64,000 nt of DNA from Octopus vulgaris. Its lineage: Eukaryota. A program made the translations under genes and the position numbers. The stretch lies in NCBI GenBank assembly GCA_951406725.2, contig OX597842.1:9610001-9674000 (forward strand). Direction: 5' to 3'. The notes under the pieces were generated by a model. That model did not search any database. It was not told the DNA's origin and saw nothing but the letters and a program-made list of their open reading frames with translations. Below are positions 47,473 to 63,613 of this stretch, in pieces (within the stretch, counting starts at the first letter, position 1; every line of letters begins with the position of its first letter).

Positions 47473-47550
47473 ATGGCGGAAAAGGCTACACTCGCTTACC
47501 TACAAGGGGCCACTCTCAAGACCTTAGGTGATGACCCTAAGGAGTTTGGG
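47473..47550 (+). CDS. PRXL2A: PRXL2A/SelU coding exon 1 ([26 protein letters not shown]); the exon begins at 47396 with 5'UTR
   Basis: Polypyrimidine tract plus TACAG acceptor ending 47395; ATG at 47473 in context ACAATGG; in-frame TGA upstream at 47446 and 47416; GTGAGT donor at 47551; matches the KAALEYLEDIDLKTL..PRTF segment of PRXL2A. Confidence 0.85.
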
Positions 47551-48919: not shown

Positions 48920-50186
48920 TGTATGTATATGTATATATATGTATGTATATATATATGTATGTATATGTATATATATGTATGTATATATATATGTATGTAT
49001 ATATATATATATGTATATGTGTATATATATATATATCACCGTGACCGACCAGGCTATCAGATGTTGCTGCACATCGCTGGTCACAATGCGCTTCACATTG
49101 TTTTAGCCTTTAAATGACGCCACCCCGCTGGCTAAGCGAGCAGGCCAACAGAAGAGAGAGTTGTGGCAACTACCCACTGCCAGAGCCTTGTGGAGCTTTA
49201 GGTGTTTTAGCTCAATAAACACTCACAACGCCTGGCCTGGGAATCGAAACCGTGATCCTACAACCGCGAGTCCGCTGCCGTAACCACTGGGCTATTGCAC
49301 CTCCACATATTTTTATATATATATATTTTTTTTTTTGGTGATTTTAATAAGAGTTTTGACTGTTATTTCAAGCAGGTAGACATACTATGTCCTTGGATTA
49401 ATTTTAATCCCTTGGCTATTTAATGCTATTTTTGGCCTGCTATCGCCTGTCCCCTTGATTCTGTTATCATTTTTAAAATAGTTACATTGGATGATAATAA
49501 AATTAATGACACCTTCACAAATTAATTTTTCGTATATATATATATATATATATATCGTGGGCATGAGTAGGCGCGGGCATGGCTGTGTGGTTAGGGAGCT
49601 TGCTTCCTAGCTATATGGTTTCGGGTTCAGTCCCACTGCGTGGCACTTTGGGCAGGTGTCTTCTGCTATAGCCCCGAGCCGACCGAAGCTTTGTGATTGA
49701 ATTCGGTAGGCGGAAGTTACTGCCGTGTGTGTAGGTGCTCAGTGCCTCTCCAAAAGTGAGAGAGGGATATGTATATATGTAGTCCTGTCTGAGCAAGGAT
49801 ATGTGTGTGTGTTTGTTTGTTTGTTTGTGGCCTGTATATCTGGAGTGTTTTTCAAATTTGTTTTTTTGTTTTCACAGGCTGGAGAACTCTGGAAGAATAA
49901 CGGAGCTATCATCATGGTGGTCCGTCGTCCAGGATGATCCATGTGCAGAGAGGTAAGCACTTTTATCATTTATATATACCCCATCATCCTCCTCCTCCTC
50001 ATTATCATCATTACCACCAGCACCACTCCAGAGTGGCTGGCATTAGGAAGGGCTTCCAAGCCATAGATGCCATACCAGAACAGAAAGTGGAGCCTGGTCC
50101 AGTCCCTGGCCTTACCAGACCAGTTCTGGTCAAACCGTCCAACCCATGCCAGCATGGAAAACGGACATTAAATGATGATGATGATA

Positions 50187-50232
<46 letters not shown>

Positions 50233-53200
50233 CGTAAAAAGCACCATCCAAACGTGGCTGATGCCAGAGCTGCCTTGACTGGCATCCGTGCCGGTGGCAC
50301 ATAAGAAGTGGTCGGTGTTTGGAAGAGCATCTAGTCATAGAAATCACACCAAAGCTAACAGTGGAGCCCAACACAGTCCTTTAGCTTACCAGCTCCTGTC
50401 AAACCACCCAACACATGCTGGCATGAAAAACTGTTAAGTGATGACGACAATGATGATGATGGTGATGATGACGATGATGACGATGTTGATGACGACGATG
50501 ATGATGTTGGTGACGATGTTGGTGATGATGACGATGTTGATGATGATGATGATGATAACGATGGTGATGTTGGTGATGATGACGATGTTGATGATGATGT
50601 TTATTACACCTGCTGGTCTTCTGTTTTCTTTTTCAGGAAGCGCAAGCGCTGTCCTCTCTGGTGCCTTACTTTGATGAACATGGCTTTAACCTTTATGCCG
50701 TTGTACACGAAGTGATGGGCACCGAAGAATTCAAATCTTTTTTTTCCGGGGAAATATTTTTGGACGTTGAAGTAAGTACATATACTCTTTTACTCTTTTA
50801 TTTGTTTCAGTCCTTTGACTGCGGCCATGCTGGCGCACCGCCTTTAATCGAGCAACTCGACCCCAGGACTTATTCTTTTGTAAGCCCAATACTTATTCTA
50901 TCGGTCTCTTTTGCCGAACTGCTAAGTAATGGGGACATAAACACACCAGCATCGGTTGTGAAGCAATGCTAGGGGGACAAACACAGACACACACATGCAT
51001 ATATATATATACATATATACGATGGGCTTCTTTCAGTTTCCGTCTACCAAATCCACTCACAAGGCTTTGGTCAGCCCGAGGCTATAGTAGAAGACACTTG
51101 CCCAAGGTGTCACACTATGGGACTGAACCCGGGACCATGGGGTTGGAAAGCAAGCTACATACCACACAGCCACTCCTGAACCTAATATATTTATTTTTTT
51201 TATATATTCCTTCAGTCTTCGGGCGTTAGCTTGGAGTTCCTTAGCAGACATGCTGTGTCTTCTGTAATCAACAGCAATTCCAATTGTTGGGGCTTCCTTC
51301 TTGCTGATGCTAGCTCTCTTCAACTCTTCAATGGTGAAACCATGTCCAGCATGGACACGCATGTTGTATTTGATGGAAGGACATGTAACGAGATTGAGCT
51401 GGGAGAATCTTTAGCACCTGGACAAAGTGCTTAGCGGTATTTCGTCTGCTGCTACATTCTGAGTTCAAATTCCGCCGAGGTCAACTTTGCCTTTCATCCT
51501 TTCAGGGTCGATAAATTAAGTACGAGTTATGCACTGGGGTCAATATAATTGACTTAATCCGTTTGTCTGTCCTTGTTTGTCCTCTCTCTGTTTAGCCCCT
51601 TGTGGGTAGTAAAGAAATAGGTATTTCGTCTGGCATTACGTTATGAGTACAAATTCTGCCGAGGTCGACTTTGCCTTTCATCCTTTCAGGGTCGATAAAT
51701 TAAGTACCAGTTACACACTGGGATCGATATAATCGACTTGATCCCTTTGTCTGTCCTTGTTTGTCCTCTCTGTTTAGCCCCTTGTGGGTAGTAAAAAAAT
51801 AGGAATGACATGTAATGATTGGCCAAAGAGGTCCAGCAGCCGGTCTGGGAGCTACTTTCCTCACTTTCATCATCCTCTTCCTTGCTCGGCGCTTTTTGCA
51901 CATTGGCTGGTCAAACCAGGTTCGGACATAACGCTGCCAGTCCTTGTGAAAATGGCCATTTGGCACCGTTTGGTTTCCAAGATGTGCCATAGTGATAAAC
52001 GATCCTATTTTTTGTCTCTTGTAACTTGTATATTGTTTCAGACAAATATGGTTACAAAGACACACATATATGTAGGCATATATATGTAGAAGACGTGTAC
52101 ATATGCCATGCATGTCCCATTTTGTACGTACACCACACATCCCCCGTTTCGTACGTACACCACACATCCCCTATTTTGTACGTACACCACACATCCACAA
52201 TTTCGTACGTACACCACACATCCACAATTTCGTACGTACACCACACATCCACAATTTCGTACGTACACCACACATCCACAATTTCGTACGTACACCACAC
52301 ATCCACCATTTCGTACGTACACCACACATCCACCATTTCGTACGTACACCACACATCCACCATTTCGTACGTACACCACACATCCACCATTTCGTACGTA
52401 CACCACACATCCACCATTTCGTACGTACACCACACATCCACCATTTCGTACGTACACCACACATCCACCATTTCATACGTACACCACACATCCACCACTT
52501 TGCATGTACACCACACATCCACCACTTTGCATGTACACTACACATCCACCATTTCGTACGTACACCACACATCCATTTCGTACGTACACCACACATCCAC
52601 CACTTGGCATGTACACCACACATCCACAATTTCGTACGTACACCACACATCCACCATTTCGTACGTACACCACACATCCACCACTTTGCATGTACACCAC
52701 ACATCCACCATTTTGTACGTACACCACACATCCACCATTTTGTACGTACACCACGCATCCACCATTTCGTACGTACACCACGCATCCACCATTTCGTACG
52801 TACACCACGCATCCACCATTTCGTACGTACACCACGCATCCACCATTTCGTACGTACACCACGCATCCACCATTTCGTACGTACACCACGCATCCACCAT
52901 TTCGTACGTACACCACGCATCCACCATTTCGTACGTGCACCACGCATCCACCATTTCGTACGTGCACCACGCATCCATTTCGTACGTGCACCACACATCC
53001 ACCATTTCGTACGTGCACCACACATCCACCATTTCGTACGTGCACCACACATCCACCATTTCGTACGTGCACCACACATCCACCATTTCATACGTACACC
53101 ACACATCCACCACTTTGCATGTACACCACACATCCACCATTTCGCACGTACACCACGCATCCACCATTTACGTACGTACACCACGCATCCACCATTTCAC

Positions 53201-56200
53201 CACACCACACGTACGTACACACACATCCACCATTTCGTACGTACGTACACCACACATCCACCACTTTGCATGTACACCACACATCCACCATTTCGCACGT
53301 ACACCACACACCCACCATTTCGTACGTACACCACACATCCACCATTTCATGTATGCCATGTATCCACCATTTTGTACACGCATGCCCCATGTATCCACCA
53401 ATTTATACATGTATGTATATGTGTAAGTATAAATGTATATATAACATTTAATCCTTTTTTTCTTTGTAGAAAACATTTTATGGTCCTAAGAAACGTTGGG
53501 CATCTTTTGCAGCACTTCTAAACCCTTTAGTATGGATGAATTTATGTAGAGCGAAAAAGAAAGGCGTAAGTGGTAACACATCAGGTGAAGGAAGACTTTT
53601 AGGGGGTAAGTCATCATTTGTCTTGTTCTTTTTTGCTTGTTTTTTTTTTTGTCATTGATGTGTGCCCATTCTGGGGACACTGCCTTGAAGGGCTCAAGTC
53701 AAGTGGTTCTCAGTTGGGTTCCATGGGGGTCCCTGAGATTTTGTTATTAAAATTTTATGTGCAATAAATGGAGGGCAGCGAACTGGCAGAATTGTTTGCA
53801 TGCAGGGCAAAGTGCCCAGTGGTATTTATTTCATCTGTTGGTGGCACATAAAAAGCACCATTCGAGGGTGGTCGTTACTGGCACGTGAAAGAACATCTGA
53901 GTGAGGTTGTAGCCAGTGCCACTGGACTGGCTCCTGTGCAGGTAGCATGTAAAAAACACCATTTGAGTGTGGCCATTGCCAGTACCACCTGACTGGCACG
54001 TAAAAGCACTCACTACACTCTCAGAGTGGTTGGCATTAGGAAGAGCATCCAGCTGTAGAATTTCTACCAGACCAGATTGGAGCCTGGGGCAGCCATCTGG
54101 TTCGCCAGTCCTCAGTCAAATCGTCCAACCCATGCCAGCATGGAAAGTGGACGTTAAATGATGATGATGCTCTGAGTTTAAATACCACCAAGGCTGACAT
54201 TGTTTTCATCCTTTTGGAGTTGATAAAATAGGTACCAGTTGAACACCAGGGTAGATTTAATCGGCTTACCTCCTACCCCATAATTGCTGGCTTTGTGCCA
54301 AAACTTATGTGCAATAAATGAAGGGCAGCAAGATGTCGGAATCGTTAGATTGCAGGGCAAAATGCTTATTGGCATTTTTGTCTGTCTTTACATTCTGAGT
54401 TCAAATTCCACCAGTGTCAACTTAGACTTTTATCCCTTTCAGGGGTTGATAAAATACATACCAGTCAAGCACTGTGGATTAATTGTGGGACCAGAAGTGG
54501 GTTCATACTGAGGATGGTTTGTCGTGGATTGTGTTCAGTGGGGTTGTTTTGTCTTGGAAATTTAATTTATGAGAAGATTAACCCTTTAGCATTTAATCCG
54601 GCCAAAAGTATTCTGCTTGTTTTATGTTCAAACTGGCCAGATCTGGTCTCTCACACCAACCCTACAATATCGTTTTTAAAATTAACAGCTACCTCATCAG
54701 AATCTCATAGCTACAAGATAATGCATGATTAGTTCAAAACAATTTGGATGAAAAAGCATTAATTTTGGTAGAATAATGTGAACACTAATGGGTTAATAAA
54801 CAAAGGTTGTTTTTGTGTGGTGGAATAATTAATTACAAAGTGCATTTCAGACATTCTAAGACTTTTCCAGGTGAGACATTTATTAATTTCAATGAAGTAC
54901 AAAACAACAGTCTCCTTCAAGTAGGATCCCCTAATTTCAATATACTCGTAGCATTCCATCCACTTTGTGAATGTGTCAGGACCCTTGTCACAGCCTCTTG
55001 AAGTTCTCATTGGACTTGTGATCGTAAGATTGTGGTTTCGATTCCTAGACCGGACAATGCTTTGTGCTCTTGAGCAATACACTTCATTTCACATTGCCCT
55101 ATTCCACTCGGCTGGTAAAAAAATGAATAATCCTTTGATGGGCTGGTGTCCCGTCCGAGTGGGTAATTTACATGCCATGGAAACCAGCCCTTATGAGGTA
55201 ACTTTACCTTGTCACAGCCTCTTTTGCCTTCTCAATGCCTTCAAAATAACTGTCCCTGAAGTTCTCCTTCAGTACTCCAACCATTTTGGTAAGGTTCCAT
55301 GGCTGTTGTTGTTGTTAAGCAACAAGACGGGTAAGGGTGATGGTCTTGGGCTTAGTGGCGGAAGACCCCAGATCGTGGCCAAACAAAAAAAAAAAACTTT
55401 GGTCGTCTTGTAGTTGAGGGCTCTTCTTTGACGCCTGACACCACTGGGAGGTGGCCCTCGAAGTCGCTGGAAATGGAGATCTCCAGGTTCAAATTCTTGA
55501 ACGGCAGGTTCCATAGCTGTGACAAGGTGTCCAGGACCCTTGTCACAGCCTCCTTCATCTTCAAAACAACTGCCCCTAAAGTTCTACTTCAGCTTAGGGA
55601 ACAACCAAAAGTCACAAGGTCTGGACTATAGGGAGTGTGAGAGACAGTTTTTTGGTGCCTATCTCTGTCGATTGCCAGGATATTCATCACCAAGCATCCT
55701 GGGAACAAAATTTGCACACGTTCAGATCTCCATGAATAATTCTGTGTACAGTTGATATGCCAACTCCAAGCCATGTGCTTATTGTCTTTTATAGATACAC
55801 GATGGTCTTCATCCACAAAACTGCAAATTTTCTCAACCAGCTTTGATGTACATCATTTACATTTGATGAATATTTGTCCTCATCTTGTTTGTTGTTAACA
55901 CAACGTTTCAGCTGATATACCCTCCAGCCTTCTTCAGGTGTCTTGGGGAAATTTTGAACCTGGGGTCTCATTCCTAAGGTATTTGAGTCTCTACATCTAC
56001 ACAGGAAAGTTAGATGGTTTGAAAGAGGAGCTAGTATTTGATAGAGTTTCTCTATATGTCTCCATTGAAGTCTAATGTTGGCTCCGTACCAATTAGATAA
56101 TACAGTTCCATATTAAAGAGATGAGGAATTATGGACATTATTTATATTTGAAGGCTATTTGTCCTCATCTTGTTTGTTGTCATCACCTTTCGGCTCATAT

Positions 56201-58578
56201 ACCTTCCAGCCTTCATCAGGTGTCTTGGGGTAATTTCGAACCTGGGTTCTCATTCCGAAGGTATTTTTCGATGTTATTATTATTCCAAGCAGTGACCCGA
56301 AAAATAATATCGAAAAATACCTTCGGAATGAGAACCCAGGTTCGAAATTTCCCCAAGACACCTGATGAAGGCTGGAGGGTATATCAGCTGAAACGTTGTG
56401 TTAACAACAAACAAAAATGAGGACAAATATCCGTTGAATGTCAATAATGTAAATATGACGATGGTGATATACTAAAATTACTACAATCTAAGTTCCTTTC
56501 CTAAAAAAGTCTCAAAACTTCTGGAATGCACCTTGTATGCTTAATTTTTGTTTTCTGTTTTATATATTTGACTCCATCTCTTTCCTTTTTCTTGTTTTAC
56601 AGGAGTTTTCGTAATTGGTCCGGCAGAAGCGGGGATTTTGCTGGATCATCGAGAAAACAAGTTCGGAGACCACGTCAAGGCGGAGCTGATCAAGTCTGTC
56701 GTGGCACAGTTCAGGGGAACAGATAAAGACAAAGGCGGAGAAGGTACAGCAGTTGTGGAGAGTGCCGTCGATGAACCGAAGAGTGCATTTGGGGGCTTCT
56801 CTGACATCACCCGTGGCGTGACCGACTCGCTGCAAGATACAGCATCTGGTGCAACGAGTATGGCCAGCCAAGTGCAACAGAACGTCACGAGCGGAATTGA
56901 GGACGCAAAGCAGAGCGCCACTGACGAGATTGATCGTGCCAAGTCAGGCGTGGCAGAAACTGCGAGCGAAATGCAGCAGGACGTAGAGAGCACGGTCGCT
57001 GAAGGGAAAAAGAGCTTAGTAAGCGGTTTCGCTGATGCACGGAAATCAGCAACAGATAGTTACAGCGGCGTGACTAGTTCATTTGGTGATGCACAGAAAA
57101 GTGCAGTGTCAGGATTCAATGAAGCGAAGCAATCTGCAGTAAAAGGATATGGAGACGCTCGTAGCGGAGTCACAAGTACCATCAGTGGTGCACAAGAAAG
57201 TGCAGTATCCGGTTTCAATGAAGCGAAGCAGTCTGCGAGTCAAGGACTCGGAGATATTCGCAGCGGCGTAACAAGCACCATCTCGGATACACAGAAAAGT
57301 GCGGTCACCGGATTCAATGAAGCGAGACAATCTGCTGTCAAAGGAGCCAGTGATATTCGCAGCGGTGTAACCAGCACCGTGTCCGATGCGCAGAAAAGTG
57401 CAGTAACAGGATTCAATGAAGCGAAGCAATCTGCTGTCAAAGGAGTCGGAGATATCCGCAGTGGCGTAACCAGTACAGTCTCTGATGCACAGAAAAGTGC
57501 AGTCACTGGATTCAATGAAGCAAAACAATCTGCTGTCAAAGGAGTTGGAGATATCCGCAGCGGCGTAACCAGTACAGTCTCTGATGCACAGAAAAGCGCA
57601 GTCACCGGATTCAACGAAGCGAAGCAATCTGCGGTGCAAGGAGCCAGTGATATTCGCCGAGGTGTGAGCAGCACTGTGAGCGATGCACAAAAGAGTGCAA
57701 CATCTTCATTCAATGAAGCAAAACAATCGGCTGTCCAAGGGGCCGGAGATATTCGCAGCAGCGTTACAGGTGCGATTAGCGAAACACAAAAAAGTGCAGC
57801 GTCTGGACTCGATGATGCAAAGCAGTCAGCGATGCAAGGGTACAGTGACATTCGTAGCGGAATAAGCAGCACCGCCAGTGATGCACAGAAAAGTGCAGTC
57901 ACAGGATTCAATGAGGCGCGAAAATCTGCAACTGATAGCATTGGTGACATTCGCAGTGGTGTGACCAGCTCGGTAAGCAGTGCGCAGAAGAATGTAGTAT
58001 CTGGAATCAATGATGCCAAACAATCTGCATCCCAGGGCCTTGGTGACATGCAGCAAAAGGTGACAGCCTCTGTTGCTGATGTGCAACGGAGCAGCGCATC
58101 TAGTTTTTCGTCAGCCAAGCAAGGCCTCACCTCCGGTGTTTCCAGTGCAAAGGGCAGCTTCAACACTGCCAAGGACGATGCGGCGAGCACTTTCTACGAT
58201 GCCAAGCAGTCTCTCGACGACAGCGTGTCGTCATCCAAGCAAGCAGTCTGCGAGAGTGCAAACACCGTTCGTTCGGACGCAGATGCTGCAAAGAACCAAC
58301 TAGCAAGCAGCGTCCAGTCGGCAAAGGATCTCGGTTCAGAAACTGCAGACAAAGCGAAACAGACCACGACCACAGAGGCAGCCGGTCTTAAGGGCACCCT
58401 AGACAAGTTCACCAAGGACCTGCCTGGCAAGGAAGATTTCCAAGAGGCCCTGGACATGGCTAAAGAGGTCGGCAAAGAAGAAATAAAAGATGTTATTGAA
58501 CAAGTAAAAACCACAGCCGGGACTGCAGTATCGGATTATACGACGCAGTTCACCGATAAACTTGGTTCCTGGAGTTAA
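47473..58578 (+). CDS. PRXL2A: Selenoprotein U / peroxiredoxin-like 2A (FAM213A family) with UxxC motif, fused to a ~600-aa 11/33-mer amphipathic repeat tail; 5 coding exons, 2400 nt, 799 aa
   Basis: Manual splicing of join(47473..47550,49878..49952,50637..50771,53470..53605,56603..58578), all GT-AG with phases 0,0,0,1, gives [59 protein letters not shown]...[17 protein letters not shown]...[33 protein letters not shown]. This is colinear with human PRXL2A as recalled (ELWEKNGAVIMAVRRPGCFLCREEA, GEIFLDEKKKFYGP, GEGFILGGVFVVG, GILLEHREKEFGDKV). Confidence 0.93.
48127..48795 (+). mobile_element. Three tandem SINE family B copies in the first coding intron
   Basis: Three head-core-tail units separated by (ATT)n. 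Confidence 0.75.
49878..49952 (+). CDS. PRXL2A: PRXL2A/SelU coding exon 2 with Sec codon TGA at 49935-49937 (U46) and Cys49
   Basis: TTTTCACAG acceptor and GTAAGC donor; translates [24 protein letters not shown]. Confidence 0.93.
50637..50771 (+). CDS. PRXL2A: PRXL2A/SelU coding exon 3
   Basis: TTTTCAG acceptor and GTAAGT donor; [45 protein letters not shown]. Confidence 0.92.
50785..51178 (-). mobile_element. SINE family A in SelU intron 3, adjacent to the truncated end of the RPL13 pseudogene
   Basis: Full reverse copy. Confidence 0.8.
51200..51990 (-). pseudogene. RPL13: Processed pseudogene of 60S ribosomal protein L13 (eL13), N-terminal ~120 codons, split by a SINE
   Basis: [29 protein letters not shown]...[15 protein letters not shown] | [41 protein letters not shown]...[11 protein letters not shown] matches eL13 motifs (HFHKDWQ, APRP, GRGFSLEEL, TIGISVD, LQANVQRLKEY); intronless, many substitutions at conserved sites, 3' part missing. 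Confidence 0.9.
51389..51806 (+). mobile_element. SINE family B (partly duplicated) inserted into the RPL13 pseudogene
   Basis: GCCTTTCATCCTTTCAGGGTCGATAAATTAAGTACC core twice; 9-bp TSD GACATGTAA at 51380-51388 and 51807-51815. Confidence 0.85.
52124..53400. repeat. 27-bp minisatellite (TACACCACACATCCACCATTTCGTACG)n, roughly 45 copies
   Basis: Directly visible tandem unit; 9-aa periodic translations in all frames. Confidence 0.95.
53470..53605 (+). CDS. PRXL2A: PRXL2A/SelU coding exon 4
   Basis: TCTTTGTAG acceptor and GTAAGT donor (phase 1); [45 protein letters not shown]. Confidence 0.9.
54800..55840 (-). mobile_element. Degenerate, fragmented mariner (Tc1/mariner) transposase remnants
   Basis: Minus strand reads HTPYSPDL, then a frameshift to [31 protein letters not shown] (~55520-55640) and [16 protein letters not shown] (~54910-54970); this fits the mariner YSPDLAPxD motif and C-terminus. 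Confidence 0.7.
55850..56450. mobile_element. Three Penelope-like terminal-repeat fragments (two forming an inverted pair) with minimal hammerhead motifs
   Basis: Copies at ~55850-55985 (-), ~56156-56280 (-) and ~56303-56450 (+); CCTGATGAAGGCTGG...TCAGCTGAAACGTTGTG signature. Confidence 0.65.
56603..58578 (+). CDS. PRXL2A: Terminal coding exon: end of the PRXL2A domain plus LEA/perilipin-4-like repeat tail
   Basis: TTTTACAG acceptor; [31 protein letters not shown] continues without a stop into the 646-aa ORF (56638-58578) and ends at TAA. Confidence 0.9.
57088..58077 (+). repeat. Ten tandem 99-nt (33-aa = 3 x 11-mer) coding repeats, consensus [11 protein letters not shown][22 protein letters not shown]
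   Basis: Exact 99-nt periodicity (GAT codons at 57088, 57385, 57484, 58078), flanked by more degenerate 11-mers. Confidence 0.92.
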
Positions 58579-60452
58579 ACAGACCGTGACGATGGCAATA
58601 AAGACATTGTCAGTGGAAGCTGTTGATCGGATTATATCACCATCGTCACCATCAGCAGCAAACACACTCACACACACGCATATAGATATACAAGCACACA
58701 CACACATGCATACATATGCATAAATACAAACGTGTGTATATATGTATATGTGTATAAACACGCACACACACACATATATACACTTGCATATACACACGTC
58801 GAAATACACACACAGGTACATTAACCCAAAGATACACATGTATAAACACACACATACACAGATAAACACAAACACATATACTTATAAATGAATATATAAA
58901 TACATACATATATACACGTTTCCAGGAATCAAAATGATTTATAAAAAAAAAAAAGACAGGAAAAATACTGAAAAGAACCCATAAAAAAAATAGAGAAAAA
59001 GTACATAAAAAAAACATCAAAAATGTGTAAAATTTAAATGAATGAAGACCACGAAGAAGACGCCGCCGAAGAAGACGAAAGAGGGGGGAACTCCCCACTC
59101 TCCCCTCGTTAGCTCCCCGCTAAAGAAAAATAAATTGAACAGTGAAAAAAGAGAGAGAGAGAGGAGAGAGAGAAAGCAAGATCAGATGCTGTAATCTAAA
59201 CTAATTGGATTCGTTCATTAAGTTACCTCCTGTTGCCGTCGCCCTCCCTCCCCCCTCGCCTTGCCAACCACCACCACCACCACCCGTCGACGCCTCCACC
59301 ACCATCACTTCCTTCAGCAGCAAGAAAAAACAAAGAGGAAAATGTTATATTGTTTAAAGGCGTCGGCTGGATTGTTACTATGGCAACAATGGCAACTAGT
59401 TGTGTAGTTTGCTGGGTTGGGCCGTGGTGTGTGTGTGTGTATGCGTGAGTAACATGTATATGCAAGTGTAATGTATTTGTGCGCCTGTGTTTATATGCAT
59501 GTCTGTATGTATATATATATACATATATATATAAGCAAATGTGAAGATATATACATGTATGCATGCATCTACAAGTGCATGTGTATATATTAAAGCATAT
59601 GTATTTGTGTACATAAATATATATATATATATATGTACATACATGCACATACATACACAGCCCATATCTATATATAGTGCAAACGTGCATGCACTCATAA
59701 ATGCATACACACATGGATCACACTTCCCAGTTGGTACCCAGGCATTTTCCATTATTTCAACTTCTTTCCTTAAACTCTGGACACAGAAAGGAATCGGTGA
59801 GAGGAGGAGGAAGAGGAAGACCAAGAAGAAGAGTAGGAGGGATTATCTGTCTGTCTCTGTGTGTATATCTATATCTCTCTCTCTCTCTTTATATGTCCTA
59901 TGTCTCCGTTAATCTGTCCTGTATTCCGACCGTTTCATGTCTGTCCGCAATAAATCTGCTGTAACGCTATATATGTGTCGTTGAGGTACACTCGAGGCCC
60001 CTTTTTTTTTTTTCTCGCCCGTTCTCTCTCGACCAACGTTACCCGTGTGACATCGGCCCAACTTTTCCCCACTGGGTTCACACGCGTACGTCCGGTCGAA
60101 ATACATTCTGGCCTCACCTGCTTACATACCTTACCTGCCTAAACTGCCTTCCTGCATGCCTTTTCGTCTGTCTCTCCGTCTCTTGGTGTCCGTCCATATC
60201 TGTTTTGTAAGTATGTGAGTGAACGCCTGAATGAATGCGTGCATGTTTGCCAGAGTGCCCATCTTTTGAAGCATGCAATTTTCCAAGAAGAAACAGTGAG
60301 AAAGTGTAAAGGAAAAAAAAAAAATTACAAAAAAAAATAATAATAATTTCCATGCATTGGTGTTGCAGTTTGGTGCAGCTTTGCGGTTGTTGAGAAGTGG
60401 TAGTAATAAAGGTTATTGTTATTATTATTCTCAATGGTTATCGCTATTCCAT

Positions 60453-60546
60453 GCGAGGGCTCACTGCCGAATGACGGCACCAGACTCAAAAGTCACTGAC
60501 CCTGTCTGGGAGCCCGATGAAATCCTACCGCAGAATAACCCCTCGT
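60453..60546 (+). promoter_or_regulatory. SECIS element (eukaryotic type II) in the 3'UTR
   Basis: ATGAC (60471-60475) / CGAT (60515-60518) quartet; helix II GGC-A-CCAGAC / GTCTGG-GA-GCC; AAAA at 60488-60491, 12 nt after the core; apical mini-stem GTC-act-GAC; helix I CTGC/GCAG plus GCGAGGG/CCCTCGT. Confidence 0.88.
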
Positions 60547-60724
60547 TCATCGAATGTGATATCTGCAGACCTCCGCCAAACGCAGCCACCACCAACCACT
60601 CACTATCTTCCCACCCACCCACCCACCCACCCACCCCGACATGTCCCTCTCCTCCCCTCTCCAACAAAAAACATATACAATACATTGACTGGAGAATGGA
60701 GAGAAAAAAAGCGTAATGAACAAA

Positions 60725-60839
60725 AATAAAGCCCTCCCCCTCCATTGCCATGGTCCCCACCCGAGAAAAAGTACAATTCAAATTACAGAAAAAGCTTCAT
60801 AAAGAATAATATTTAAAAAAAATGAAAAATTACAATAAA
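60725..60839 (+). terminator. Candidate distal polyadenylation signals downstream of the SECIS
   Basis: AATAAA at 60725-60730 and 60834-60839, followed by a GT/T-rich tract at ~60888-60910. Confidence 0.45.
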
Positions 60840-60902
60840 AGTTTTGAAAATTTCCCCACAAAAAAAATTTAAAAAAAAAAAGAAACTTTGATGTGTCTTT
60901 TG

Positions 60903-60936
<34 letters not shown>

Positions 60937-61106
60937 CTATATATTAATACGCTAAGGCTGAAATGTGTTGAACTGTCATGTGGTTAGCTGAAAGGAGAGA
61001 CAAAGAACGAAAGAAAAAGTGGAAGAGAGAAGTGTTAACGACATGAGGTAGGGAGAAAGTAATAGTTGTTATGCTAGGATGCTGTCGAGTGGTTAGTTCA
61101 AAAGAG

Positions 61107-61880
61107 GGATCTTTTCCTTTTGAACGGCACTTTGTAACATCATTTCTAGGTAACTAAAAAGTTTTAAACTTCATATACTGGTAGAATGTGTTTATAAAAC
61201 ATCATTCTCTCTTTGCTTTATTGAGAAGATTCTATAGTTTGTAAGATATTTCGTCTGAAATTTCGAGCATTTCGGCAATTTTAGCCAATCGATTACCTCC
61301 ATTTAGGTAAATAACATTCTGTGCATAATGAATATGTCCCTCGTTTAAGAAACAGATTGGGTTTATTTACATTTGTGAAGAAAAAAAGATACCCTTCCCC
61401 AACCCCTAACCCTAAATCTAAAATAGATTGAAATGCAATAGATCGATACTGGGGCCATAATTATGGGTGACATTTTCATTTGACATCGCTAGAAAAAAAT
61501 CCCATTTTCCGTAGCAGTGTCATAAGAAATTGTCACCCATAATTATAACCCTAGTATCAATCTATTGCATTTCAATCTATTTTAGGGTTAGGGGTGAGGG
61601 AAGGGTATCTTTTTTTTCTTCACAAATGTAAATAAACCCAATCTGTTTCTTAAACGAGGGTCATATTCATACGGCACAGAATGCTTTTTAACTCAAGACG
61701 TCATTGATTGGTTGAAATTGAAAAAAAAAACAACAAATATCTTACAAACTATAGAATTTTCTCAATAAAGCCAAGAGAAAGAGATGTTTCATAAACACAT
61801 TCTACCAGTATACGAAGTTTAAAATTTTTTTAGTTACCTAGAAATTATTTTACAAAGTGCCGTTCAAAAGGAAAAGATCC
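61107..61880. mobile_element. Fold-back non-autonomous DNA transposon (MITE) with ~380-bp inverted arms; Merlin/hAT-like 8-bp TSD
   Basis: Starts GGATCTTTTCCTTTTGAACGGCAC and ends GTGCCGTTCAAAAGGAAAAGATCC; flanks CAAAAGAG / CAAAGGAG; internal CCCTAACCCTAA motifs. Confidence 0.85.
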
Positions 61881-62056
61881 CAAAGGAGAAACAAAAAGAG
61901 GGAGAGTGTGTTTACTCTGAGAGGGAAGGGATAAAAAGTGGAGAGAGATAAACAAGTTAGAGGCATGTGGTATAATTGAAGTGAGAGGCAAAGAGAGAAT
62001 GTTGACAGAAAGGGAACGTGGAAGTGGAAAGCAGTTGCATGATTTTAAACATCATA

Positions 62057-62406: not shown

Positions 62407-62581
62407 TGCAAGAGTATATAATAGTATATTGTGACAGACAATAAGTTTTGTTGTGGTTACAGGTTTTAATGTTCAAATTTCTATATTTTCAATTGGTTGA
62501 TGTATCTATGTGGATTGACTGTTTATTCAAGGACAGAAAATAGAAAGACAGATGGCTGATATATTGATACATAATTAAATT

Positions 62582-63173
62582 TGGTGTTGGAGAAGGCTTT
62601 TACGGATTCCATGGACAGCGAGGCTCACCAATGGAGAAGTTCTTAAGCAAATAAGGCCAAAAATGTCGCTGGAAGCTAGGATCACCAAGCATAGGTTGGC
62701 ATATTTCGGTCATATTATGCAGAGAAAATCCCTGGAGAAGGACATCATGCTCGGAATGGTCAGTGGCAAGAGAGGAAGAGGCCGACCAAGAACCCGCTGG
62801 CTTGACACCATCAAGAGTGATACCGGAATGGACATAGCCAATCTGAAGGAAGCGGCCCAGGATAGAACTGACTGGAGGACACTGATCCAACGAGTGACCG
62901 AGAGTCGACTTCGACTGAGCGGATATATATATAGAAAGAGAGAGAGATTTATATATATATATATTATGCGGAAAAAATCCCTGGAGAAGGACATCATGCT
63001 CGGAATGGTCAGTGGCAAGAGAGGAAGAGGCTGACCAAGAACCTGCTGGCTTGACACCATCAAGAGTGATACCGGAATGGACATGGCCAGTCTGAAGGAA
63101 GCGGCCCAGGATAGAACTGACTGGAGGACACTGATCCAACGAGTGACTGAGAGTCGACTTTGACTGAGCGGAT
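62582..63173 (+). mobile_element. RTE-clade (BovB-like) LINE 3' fragment with a tandem duplicate of its last ~210 bp
   Basis: WCWRRLLRIPWTAR.TN.EVL...SLEARI.K.RLAYFGHIMQRKSLEKDIMLG.VSGKRGRGRPRTRWLD...DR.DWR.LI..VTESRLRL is the typical RTE/BovB ORF C-terminus; the copy at ~62963-63173 carries stops. Confidence 0.88.
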
Positions 63174-63613
63174 AGAAGAATTAAATCAGAGTGGAATAAT
63201 TAAAAAATAAAATGGAACTCCATCAGTTATGATGACAAGGGTTCCAGCTGATCCGGTCAAAAGAACCGGCTCGAGAAACTAATGTGCAAGTGGCTGAGTA
63301 CTCCACAGACATGTGTACCCTTAATGTAGTTCTCAGGGAGATTCAGCATGACATAGAGTGTAACAAGGCTGGCCCTTTGAAATACAGGTACAACTCATGT
63401 TTGCCAGCCAAGTGGACTGGAGCAACATGAAATGAAGAGCCTTGCTGAAGGACACAACACATTGCCAGGAACTGAACTCCTGATCTTACGATCGTAAGCC
63501 AAATGCCCTAACCACTAAGCCATGGGGAAACAACCTTAGTAAATAACTGTAGATGTTACCTTTTTATATGTAACAGCTCAAAGGCTGAGGCCATACTGGG
63601 GCAATGCAATAAT

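What the first reader, a model, noticed from the sequence alone, without database searches (positions are those of the whole stretch)
60453..60546. Type II SECIS ~1.9 kb after the stop and ~4.15 kb from the UGA in the mRNA
All hallmarks are visible: AUGAC/CGAU kink-turn quartet, helix II, unpaired AAAA at the right spacing, apical mini-stem and a two-part helix I. It sits in a GC-rich island within an otherwise microsatellite-rich UTR. It independently supports the Sec call and implies the whole repeat tail lies between the UGA and the SECIS on one mRNA.
Basis: partly seen in the sequence, partly recalled or inferred. Interest (0 to 1): 0.72.

Follow-up and report, generated by a model that had tools for sequence, protein, structure and literature searches.

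The report
Selenocysteine insertion signal in SelU1 mRNA
This is likely an ordinary selenium-insertion signal near the end of an animal antioxidant-enzyme gene: a stem-loop about 4,150 bases past an in-frame stop codon that it would let ribosomes read as selenocysteine, probably helped by a second hairpin predicted right behind that codon.

Summary
60453-60546 has the parts of a type II eukaryotic SECIS: AUGA/GA core, 9-bp helix II, AAAA 12 nt above the core, 3-bp mini-stem. It lies 1,874 nt after the stop and 4,154 nt after the only in-frame UGA of a clean five-exon SelU1/PRXL2A-type gene (UxxC). A hit this stable arose in 2 of 600 UTR shuffles. The genome has tRNA-Sec, SepSecS and four control SECIS elements. 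Three small, probably RNA, assemblies hold the element at depth 93-267.

It is an imperfect example: only the loose SECISearch patterns pass, Rfam misses it (3 of 4 controls are seen), and a rival hairpin can bury the AUGA. One mRNA from UGA to SECIS is inferred, not shown: about 900 nt after the stop are unbridged.

New here: the most stable hairpin of the whole coding sequence starts 5 nt after the UGA and forms only after splicing (SRE-like); and all three covering runs read A60479 as G (allele, assembly error or editing; untested).

The scan had noted the host gene on this window (e1-8662370) and a post-UGA hairpin in bacterial-type relatives (e1-2073449). Verdict: new member of a known kind.

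The parts
60453..60546 (+). Type II SECIS candidate, whole element
   Evidence: Loose SECISearch pattern, -13.6 kcal/mol core, shuffle test, contig cover; single copy found in the genome
60471..60475 (+). 5' strand of the non-Watson-Crick quartet (A-UGAC)
   Evidence: Sequence
60476..60514 (+). Helix II (60476-60485 with 60504-60514), unpaired AAAA (60488-60491), helix III (60492-60494 with 60498-60500)
   Evidence: Minimum-energy fold of this inner stretch without constraints
60515..60518 (+). 3' strand of the quartet (CGAU)
   Evidence: Sequence
60465..60479 (+). Rival 5-bp hairpin that puts AUGA in a loop and takes the foot of helix II
   Evidence: In the free fold; pair probability 0.58 against 0.31-0.41 for lower helix II in the 94-nt element
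60479..60479 (+). A in the assembly, G in 3 of 3 covering runs; unpaired in the SECIS fold
   Evidence: no DNA run laid
60487..60487 (+). C in the assembly, A in run X19; lengthens the apical A run; that allele passes the default pattern
60834..60839 (+). Likely poly(A) signal; the X19 contig is estimated to end near 60869; a U/GU-rich tract follows near 60887-60910
   Evidence: the end is estimated from contig length, and an A-rich tract could also break a contig there
47473..47550 (+). First coding exon (ATG at 47473)
   Evidence: Gene model, GT donor
49878..49952 (+). Coding exon 2 with the in-frame TGA at 49935-49937 (codon 46, UxxC)
   Evidence: aligns with C of CxxC in P0017
49943..50664 (+). 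SRE-like hairpin of the spliced mRNA: 49943-49952 joined to 50637-50664, starting 5 nt after the UGA
   Evidence: -21.1 kcal/mol; synonymous nulls 4 of 2000 and 2 of 2000; unspliced -3.9
50637..50771 (+). Coding exon 3
   Evidence: PF13911 AhpC-TSA_2, E 9e-4, 20 bits, below the 27-bit cut-off; PDB prostamide/PGF synthase E 2e-4
53470..53605 (+). Coding exon 4
56603..58578 (+). Last coding exon: end of the thioredoxin-like domain, about 620-aa Ser/Ala/Gly/Thr-rich tail with 8.4 copies of a 99-nt unit, stop TAA at 58576-58578

Best explanation
The stem-loop at 60453-60546 is likely a working type II SECIS element, probably a weak one, in the 3' UTR of a SelU1/PRXL2A-type gene whose codon 46 is an in-frame UGA. 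Shown: the core, helix II, apical A run and mini-stem are in the sequence; the gene has one in-frame UGA in a UxxC motif and 753 open codons behind it; the genome encodes tRNA-Sec and SepSecS; small high-depth assemblies hold the element. Inferred from the established eukaryotic pathway: the tandem G-A pairs form a kink-turn that binds SBP2, which brings eEFSec with Sec-tRNA to a ribosome at the UGA about 4,150 nt upstream, so that a 799-residue selenoenzyme with its long tail is made instead of a 45-residue peptide. Predicted: a splice-formed hairpin 5 nt after the UGA would slow termination as an SRE does, and SBP2 binding would pull the element out of the rival hairpin.
For: Only loose-pattern hit on the + strand between the stop and 62,000 and the most stable of the 12 + strand hits in the window; 2 of 600 and 0 of 1000 shuffles as stable. 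A filter of loose pattern, helix closing on the core and energy <= -7 keeps 6 of 151 hits in 648,000 strand-bases: this one, four SECIS elements 3' of two GPx, a Sep15-family and a thioredoxin reductase gene, and one antisense intron hit (thresholds chosen with the controls in view). It meets the structural SECISearch3 filter limits as read in the supplement and has the G-Y first pair and Y at -4 noted by SECISaln. Gene: canonical splice sites, 60% identity over 177 aa to leech PRXL2A on both sides of the UGA (26 of 43 before, 79 of 129 after); one locus found in the genome. Machinery: three tRNA-Sec genes with TCA anticodon, SepSecS in seven stop-free pieces. Cover in 3 of 4 runs laid, three studies, depth 93-267 in assemblies of 15-68 million letters against a 2.8-Gb genome. 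Both observed variants fall on positions unpaired in the SECIS fold. SRE-like hairpin. 4,154 nt is inside the mammalian range of 207-5,207 nt (PMC3316567).
Against: Fails the strict and default patterns that all four controls pass. Not reported by Rfam SECIS_1 at E<=10 in three searches whereas 3 of 4 controls are (35.3, 30.2, 17.8 bits; missed). The first two pairs of helix II have probability 0.31 and 0.36 against 0.73-0.92 and 0.88-0.99 in the controls; the SECIS fold lies 1.4 kcal/mol above the minimum in 94 nt and 2.6-5.8 above it in longer contexts (the energy model has no kink-turn term). 3' core is CGAU, not KGAW. The 3' side of the internal loop is 11 nt to the best helix I. No cross-species covariation. 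RNA status of the runs is a guess, contigs give no strand, and nothing bridges stop and SECIS. SBP2 and eEFSec genes were not searched.
Confidence: 0.84

Rival explanations
1. The SECIS is real but not always on the long-tailed mRNA. Either early polyadenylation (AATAAA at 58597 or 59129) gives SECIS-less mRNAs that stop at the UGA, or a donor-like site at 56744 splices the tail out and joins a short SelU1 frame to the SECIS region.
For: Five AATAAA/ATTAAA hexamers lie between stop and SECIS; two are upstream of the estimated contig starts at 59493-59643. An AG|GTACAG sequence lies at 56742-56749, just after the conserved domain. Relatives of similar core end near 190-230 aa.
Against: 14 runs guessed to be RNA hold 0.90-0.96 of the words of the whole last exon. 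The contigs' upstream ends fall in TA-rich microsatellite where assemblies break anyway. The three hexamers nearer the element lie inside the estimated extent of at least some contigs, so they are read through.
Confidence: 0.12
2. The stem-loop is a chance look-alike; the gene's true SECIS lies elsewhere or has an unusual form.
For: Loose patterns ring often (21 hits in this window; 321 of 600 shuffles; 33.8 false hits per Mb in PMC3753652 Table 1). Rfam misses it. My scan found no clear SECIS within about 30 kb of three other UGA-bearing genes (two GPx, one Rdx), so elements can lie far off or escape the patterns.
Against: Stability and closure beat 598-600 of 600 shuffles; one unexplained hit in about 648,000 strand-bases passes the same filter; nothing better in the 20 kb past the window; the element sits a few hundred bases before the estimated 3' end.
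Confidence: 0.07
3. The UGA is passed without this element: by re-initiation at Met48, by hairpin-driven read-through with a near-cognate tRNA, or by A-to-I editing of UGA to a Trp codon.
For: An ATG lies two codons after the UGA; the SelN SRE also promotes read-through of other stops (PMC6844570); one relative has Trp at this position (P0041).
Confidence: 0.05

Closest known systems
Eukaryotic type II SECIS element (definition in PMC2647825 and PMC3753652; Rfam RF00031 SECIS_1)
   Same: UGA/GA core with a 5' A, 12 nt to an unpaired A run, helix III, G-C first pair, Y at -4, 3' UTR position downstream of a Sec-type gene.
   Different: C instead of G/U at the first 3' core position; 1x2 loop in helix II; long 3' internal loop; a rival hairpin over the core; no RF00031 match at E<=10.
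SECIS elements of two GPx genes, a Sep15-family gene and thioredoxin reductase in the same genome (L024, L026, L042, L046)
   Same: All type II with AUGA, GAU, 10-13 nt spacing and 36-42 nt between the core strands (39 here); the L024 element has the same length and G+C and is also missed by Rfam.
   Different: All four pass the strict pattern and fold freely into the SECIS shape with higher probability.
Human weak SECIS elements such as GPX3 (PMC2761289)
   Same: Mismatches in helix II and an asymmetric internal loop, the two regions that paper ties to low recoding; G-C pair at the foot of helix II.
   Different: Lacks the U three bases before AUGA that, together with the G-C pair, predicted weak activity there. 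Activity is not measured here.
DIO2 mRNA (longest mammalian UGA-to-SECIS distance; range 207-5,207 nt, mean 872; PMC3316567)
   Same: Recoding over more than 4 kb.
   Different: Here over half of the spacer (2,262 nt) is coding sequence, mostly a repeat tail.
Selenocysteine redefinition element (SRE) of SELENON and SELENOT (PMC8704476)
   Same: Stable stem-loop a few bases 3' of the Sec UGA inside the coding sequence.
   Different: Predicted here in a SelU1-type gene and across an exon junction; conservation and effect untested.
SELENOU1 / PRXL2A (FAM213A)
   Same: 60% identity over 177 aa to the leech protein; UxxC where it has CxxC; all Sec-bearing vertebrate SelU genes belong to this branch (PMC13134290, PMC3316567).
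   Different: A roughly 620-aa repeat tail, for which one search found no close relative.

Membership tests
Eukaryotic type II SECIS (structural class) | Invariant UGA/GA of the quartet, with an A 5' of it | tested here: met
   ATGAC 60471, CGAT 60515; PMC2647825 names UGA/GA as the only invariable part
Eukaryotic type II SECIS (structural class) | Helix II of fitting length and little bending; 10-13 nt from core to the A run | tested here: met
   9 pairs plus a 1x2 loop, 12 nt (11 in the X19 allele); within the SECISearch3 filter limits 7-15 pairs, bending <=2, apical region 8-30 nt, energy <= -4
Eukaryotic type II SECIS (structural class) | Unpaired AA in the apical bulge and an extra helix III | tested here: met
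   AAAA 60488-60491 and a 3-bp stem in the best fold of the inner stretch; an alternative pairing lies only 0.2 kcal/mol higher
Eukaryotic type II SECIS (structural class) | Helix I closing the internal loop | tested here: inconclusive
   4-bp and 7-bp parts form under the SECIS constraint, but with an 11-nt 3' loop; a rival hairpin competes
Eukaryotic type II SECIS (structural class) | Lies in the 3' UTR of the mRNA that bears the Sec UGA | tested here: inconclusive
   Right strand and place in the gene model; covered in 3 of 4 runs; no bridge to the coding region
Eukaryotic type II SECIS (structural class) | Organism has the Sec pathway | tested here: met
   tRNA-Sec x3, SepSecS, four GPx matches with an in-frame TGA; SBP2 and eEFSec not searched
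Eukaryotic type II SECIS (structural class) | Binds SBP2 and directs UGA recoding | not testable with these tools
   Needs a binding and a reporter assay
Rfam RF00031 SECIS_1 (score-defined family) | Reaches the 35-bit gathering score | tested here: not met
   No match at E<=10. Only 1 of 4 control elements reaches 35 bits. Not filed under RF00031.
SECISearch strict/default pattern set | Matches pat_s or pat_dm2 | tested here: not met
   My re-implementation of the published patterns: assembly allele passes loose and loose+ only; the X19 allele also passes default
SRE (hairpin 3' of the UGA) | Stable stem-loop starting a few bases after the Sec codon | tested here: met
   Starts 5 nt after the UGA; 12 of 16 pairs at probability 0.8-1.0 in a 180-nt context, the 4 outer pairs at 0
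SRE (hairpin 3' of the UGA) | Conserved with paired changes in orthologues | not tested
   No orthologous DNA was at hand
SRE (hairpin 3' of the UGA) | Stimulates Sec insertion | not testable with these tools
   Needs a reporter
SELENOU1 / PRXL2A | AhpC-TSA_2 thioredoxin-like domain with UxxC or CxxC | tested here: met
   the Pfam score of the single exon is below the cut-off, the whole-core match to PRXL2A is E 9e-80
SELENOU1 / PRXL2A | Groups with the SelU1 branch, not SelU2 or SelU3, in a tree | not tested
   No tree built; the named near relatives are PRXL2A/FAM213A

The most novel reading that the evidence does not exclude
A regulated long-range recoding unit: the SECIS rests in a closed form (AUGA buried in a rival hairpin), is opened by SBP2 and nudged by A-to-I editing at 60479, and works with a hairpin that exists only after exon 2-3 splicing, so that splicing, editing and selenium supply together decide whether a 45-residue stub or an 800-residue tailed selenoenzyme is made. 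It would be a case of editing inside a SECIS helix, which one search did not turn up in its listing.
Probability: 0.08. Interest if true: 0.65.

Novelty: new member of a known kind. Interest (0 to 1): 0.3.

Why it matters
The element turns an apparent premature stop into a credible selenocysteine codon and so fixes the annotation of a gene that pipelines break: among relatives, five predicted proteins start two residues after this codon and four annotated models skip it. It is a natural test case for recoding across more than 4 kb, over half of it translated, by an element that standard tools score poorly. The splice-formed hairpin behind the UGA is a cheap, testable lead for an SRE in the SelU family. 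The mechanism itself is textbook.

Tried and rejected
Rfam at gathering score over the window and RF00031 over the genome (129 of 47,867 candidates scored, no match, and it missed elements later found at 30-35 bits): uninformative. A covariance model seeded from one control element recovered 2 of the 3 other controls weakly, missed the third and took in a reverse-strand match, and MAFFT did not put the controls in register; dropped, never run on the window. Protein searches with the tail exon (one weak hit), exon 4 and P0004 among longer proteins found no usable relative; weak evidence. No RNA holder is listed as such. Run X21 gave no cover: no evidence of absence. A metagenome scan for DNA copies to settle the letter at 60479 found nothing. 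PF13911 and PF00837 found nothing in the genome; the eight PF10961 matches were judged low-complexity noise from five translated. Flanks of two GPx genes and one Rdx gene with a TGA gave no clear SECIS; flanks of a GPx match without a stop and of two other Pyr_redox_dim loci were scanned and counted as background. Editing as a strong switch was rejected on energy: the G allele narrows the gap to the SECIS fold only from 1.4 to 1.1 kcal/mol, and none of the 25 longest of 108 inverted repeats touches the element. The microRNA matches are microsatellite artefacts far below their cut-offs.

Full report
Setting. The window is G000:C29:9610001-9674000 in a 2.8-Gb genome of 227 contigs. I did not establish the species; earlier scan notes call it octopus-like, which is a lead only.

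The element. The 94 bases hold ATGAC at 60471, AAAA at 60488 and CGAT at 60515. The 39 bases between the core strands fold freely into a 3-bp plus 6-bp helix with a 1x2 loop, an unpaired UCAAAA bulge and a 3-bp apical stem, -13.6 kcal/mol. The whole element folds better than its shuffles (z -2.65, 1 of 200), but its minimum-energy form is different: 60465-60479 makes a hairpin with AUGA in the loop. The SECIS form is 1.4 kcal/mol higher in 94 nt, 5.8 in 60400-60600 and 2.6 in 60348-60870. The energy model has no term for the kink-turn or SBP2, so this understates the SECIS form, yet the four control elements form their first helix II pairs far more readily under the same model (0.73-0.99 against 0.31-0.36). 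A DNA search found one copy in the genome.

Is it chance? I took the four SECISearch patterns from the supplement of PMC3753652 and re-implemented them; the published program was not run. The loose pattern hits 21 places in the window, 12 on the + strand; this is the most stable of those 12 and the only one between the stop and 62,000; one minus-strand intron hit at 55558 is more stable. In dinucleotide shuffles of 58579-61600, 321 of 600 had some hit, 2 of 600 one as stable and 0 of 600 one that also closed on the core; for 59960-60900 the counts were 94, 0 and 0 of 1000. The 20 kb past the window gave nothing better than -5.6.

Controls from the same genome. I located four GPx matches with an in-frame TGA, an Rdx-family match with a TGA, a Sep15-family last exon (its UGA exon was not seen) and a thioredoxin reductase ending in the Gly-Cys-UGA-Gly-stop motif. 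Of these seven, four had a strict-pattern type II element downstream on the right strand and three had none that was clear within about 30 kb. Over the window and 26 fetched stretches, both strands, 648,000 bases, 6 of 151 loose hits closed on the core with energy <= -7: the candidate, the four controls and one antisense hit at 49987 (the limit was set with the controls in view). Rfam reported SECIS_1 for three of the four controls in 241-base searches (35.3, 30.2 and 17.8 bits) and missed the one that resembles the candidate in length and G+C. It missed the candidate in 5,001, 241 and 75 bases. So the Rfam blank counts against, but not heavily.

The host gene. Five exons with GT-AG ends give 799 codons with a single internal stop, TGA at 49935-49937, codon 46, in a UxxC motif; 2,262 coding bases follow, then 1,874 to the element; UGA to AUGA is 4,154 nt (a first try had two boundaries off by one). 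Exon 3 matches PF13911 (E 9e-4, under the cut-off) and solved prostamide/PGF synthase. An exon 3 search returned 54 relatives; those of the ten looked up that carry a descriptive name are PRXL2A/FAM213A. The core is 59.9% identical over 177 aa to the leech protein, with the TGA on the first Cys of its CxxC and equal identity on both sides. Of 57 proteins compared, 56 aligned; most are single-exon fragments that do not reach the site. Two carry the true motif with Cys (P0017, P0027), one Trp (P0041), four annotated models have a gap there, and five begin exactly two residues later, as gene callers do after a stop; a few other letters at that column come from intron sequence and were disregarded. 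The leech protein matched only this locus in the genome. Three tRNA-Sec genes and SepSecS are present.

Transcription. Twenty of 23 listed runs hold most of the last coding exon; none is on record as RNA, 14 of the 20 are guessed to be. I laid four runs on 60348-60608. X8, X12 and X19, three studies, each gave one contig at depth 93, 110 and 267 from assemblies of 15, 61 and 68 million letters; such depth in so small an assembly of a 2.8-Gb genome points to RNA, by inference, and no silent stretch or DNA run was laid. X21 gave nothing. From their lengths the contigs would span about 59643-60577, 59504-60543 and 59493-60869 (assuming no gaps). The last ends 30 nt after AATAAA at 60834, before a U/GU-rich tract, as a 3' end would, though an A-rich tract could break it as well. 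It does not show strand or link the element to the coding region.

Two variants. All three covering runs read 60479 as G; X19 also reads 60487 as A. These were the only differences in 261 bases and both fall on positions unpaired in the SECIS fold; with both, the default pattern passes. An allele or assembly error is the plain reading of 60479. A-to-I editing is possible if the animal is a coleoid (abundant editing: PMC6881472, seen as a search listing), but no long duplex covers the site and the energetic effect is 0.3 kcal/mol.

A second element. In the spliced model a 16-pair hairpin starts 5 nt after the UGA and spans the exon 2-3 junction: -21.1 kcal/mol, against -3.9 for the unspliced sequence. 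Only 4 of 784 in-frame 48-nt windows of the coding sequence are as stable, and all four start at codons 45-48. Synonymous recodings reach it in 4 of 2000 and 2 of 2000, dinucleotide shuffles in 7 of 1000. In a 180-nt context 12 pairs hold at 0.8-1.0 and the outer four do not. It depends on my exon model, which no read confirmed here. It resembles the SRE of SELENON and SELENOT (PMC8704476) and is independent support for recoding.

Comparison and novelty. By PMC2647825 only UGA/GA is invariable; the C in CGAU departs from a majority class, not a rule. Helix II mismatches and an asymmetric loop mark weak human elements (PMC2761289), hence 'probably weak'. The distance is long but inside 207-5,207 nt (PMC3316567). 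Sec-bearing SelU1 is known in fish and birds (PMC13134290). My searches for this gene's SECIS in molluscs or octopus, for editing in SECIS elements and for an SRE in SelU listed nothing on it, judged from titles and abstract starts. The mollusc selenoproteome paper PMC6885538 was not held and may bear on novelty. Seen: PMC3753652, parts 1-2 of 4, passages of supplement file 2 and its part 4 (file 1 not searchable); PMC2647825, part 1 of 2; PMC2761289, PMC3316567, PMC13134290, PMC8704476, PMC6844570, PMC3541580 and PMC12936836, passages only (the last two added nothing used); PMC9076623 and PMC6881472, listings only. The SBP2-eEFSec pathway is established knowledge, also stated in the figure legend read.

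Verdict. A real, likely working, imperfect type II SECIS: new member of a known kind, confidence 0.84, interest 0.3.

Noticed in passing
window 49943-49952 joined to 50637-50664: SRE-like hairpin right after the UGA that forms only in the spliced mRNA; most stable in-frame 48-nt window of the coding sequence.
   Followed up: partly
window 60479 and 60487: A read as G in 3 of 3 covering runs, C read as A in one; allele, assembly error or editing not told apart.
   Followed up: partly
window 51200-51410 and 51700-52051, minus strand: Broken reading frames in intron 3 that look like pieces of a processed ribosomal protein L13 pseudogene interrupted by short repeats (the name is recalled, not from a call).
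   Followed up: no
window 52117-53348: Tandem array of 46 copies of a 27-nt unit in intron 3, open in several frames.
   Followed up: no
window 57087-57918: 8.4 copies of a 99-nt (33-aa) unit in the coding tail; Pfam Apolipoprotein 89.3 bits, just under its 90-bit cut-off. Subject of earlier finding e1-8662370.
   Followed up: no
window 61106-61881: Nested inverted repeat about 780 bases long, arms 77-94% complementary, just past the likely 3' end; looks like a miniature inverted-repeat transposon (label is my inference).
   Followed up: no
window 62579-63175: Two tandem fragments resembling the C-terminal end of a LINE-type reverse transcriptase (label recalled).
   Followed up: no
window 49987 and 55558, minus strand: Two SECIS-pattern hits antisense to the gene, -7.4 and -19.6 kcal/mol; taken as chance.
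   Followed up: partly
L024 4836 (+), L026 5129 (-), L042 392 (+), L046 1533 (+): Four strict-pattern type II SECIS elements downstream of two GPx, a Sep15-family and a thioredoxin reductase gene.
   Followed up: yes
L005 1501-1656; L011; L019: An Rdx-family exon with CxxU and two GPx genes with a TGA for which no clear SECIS turned up within about 30 kb.
   Followed up: partly
L002, L003, L004: Three tRNA-Sec genes, two of them 57 kb apart on opposite strands of one contig with equal scores.
   Followed up: no
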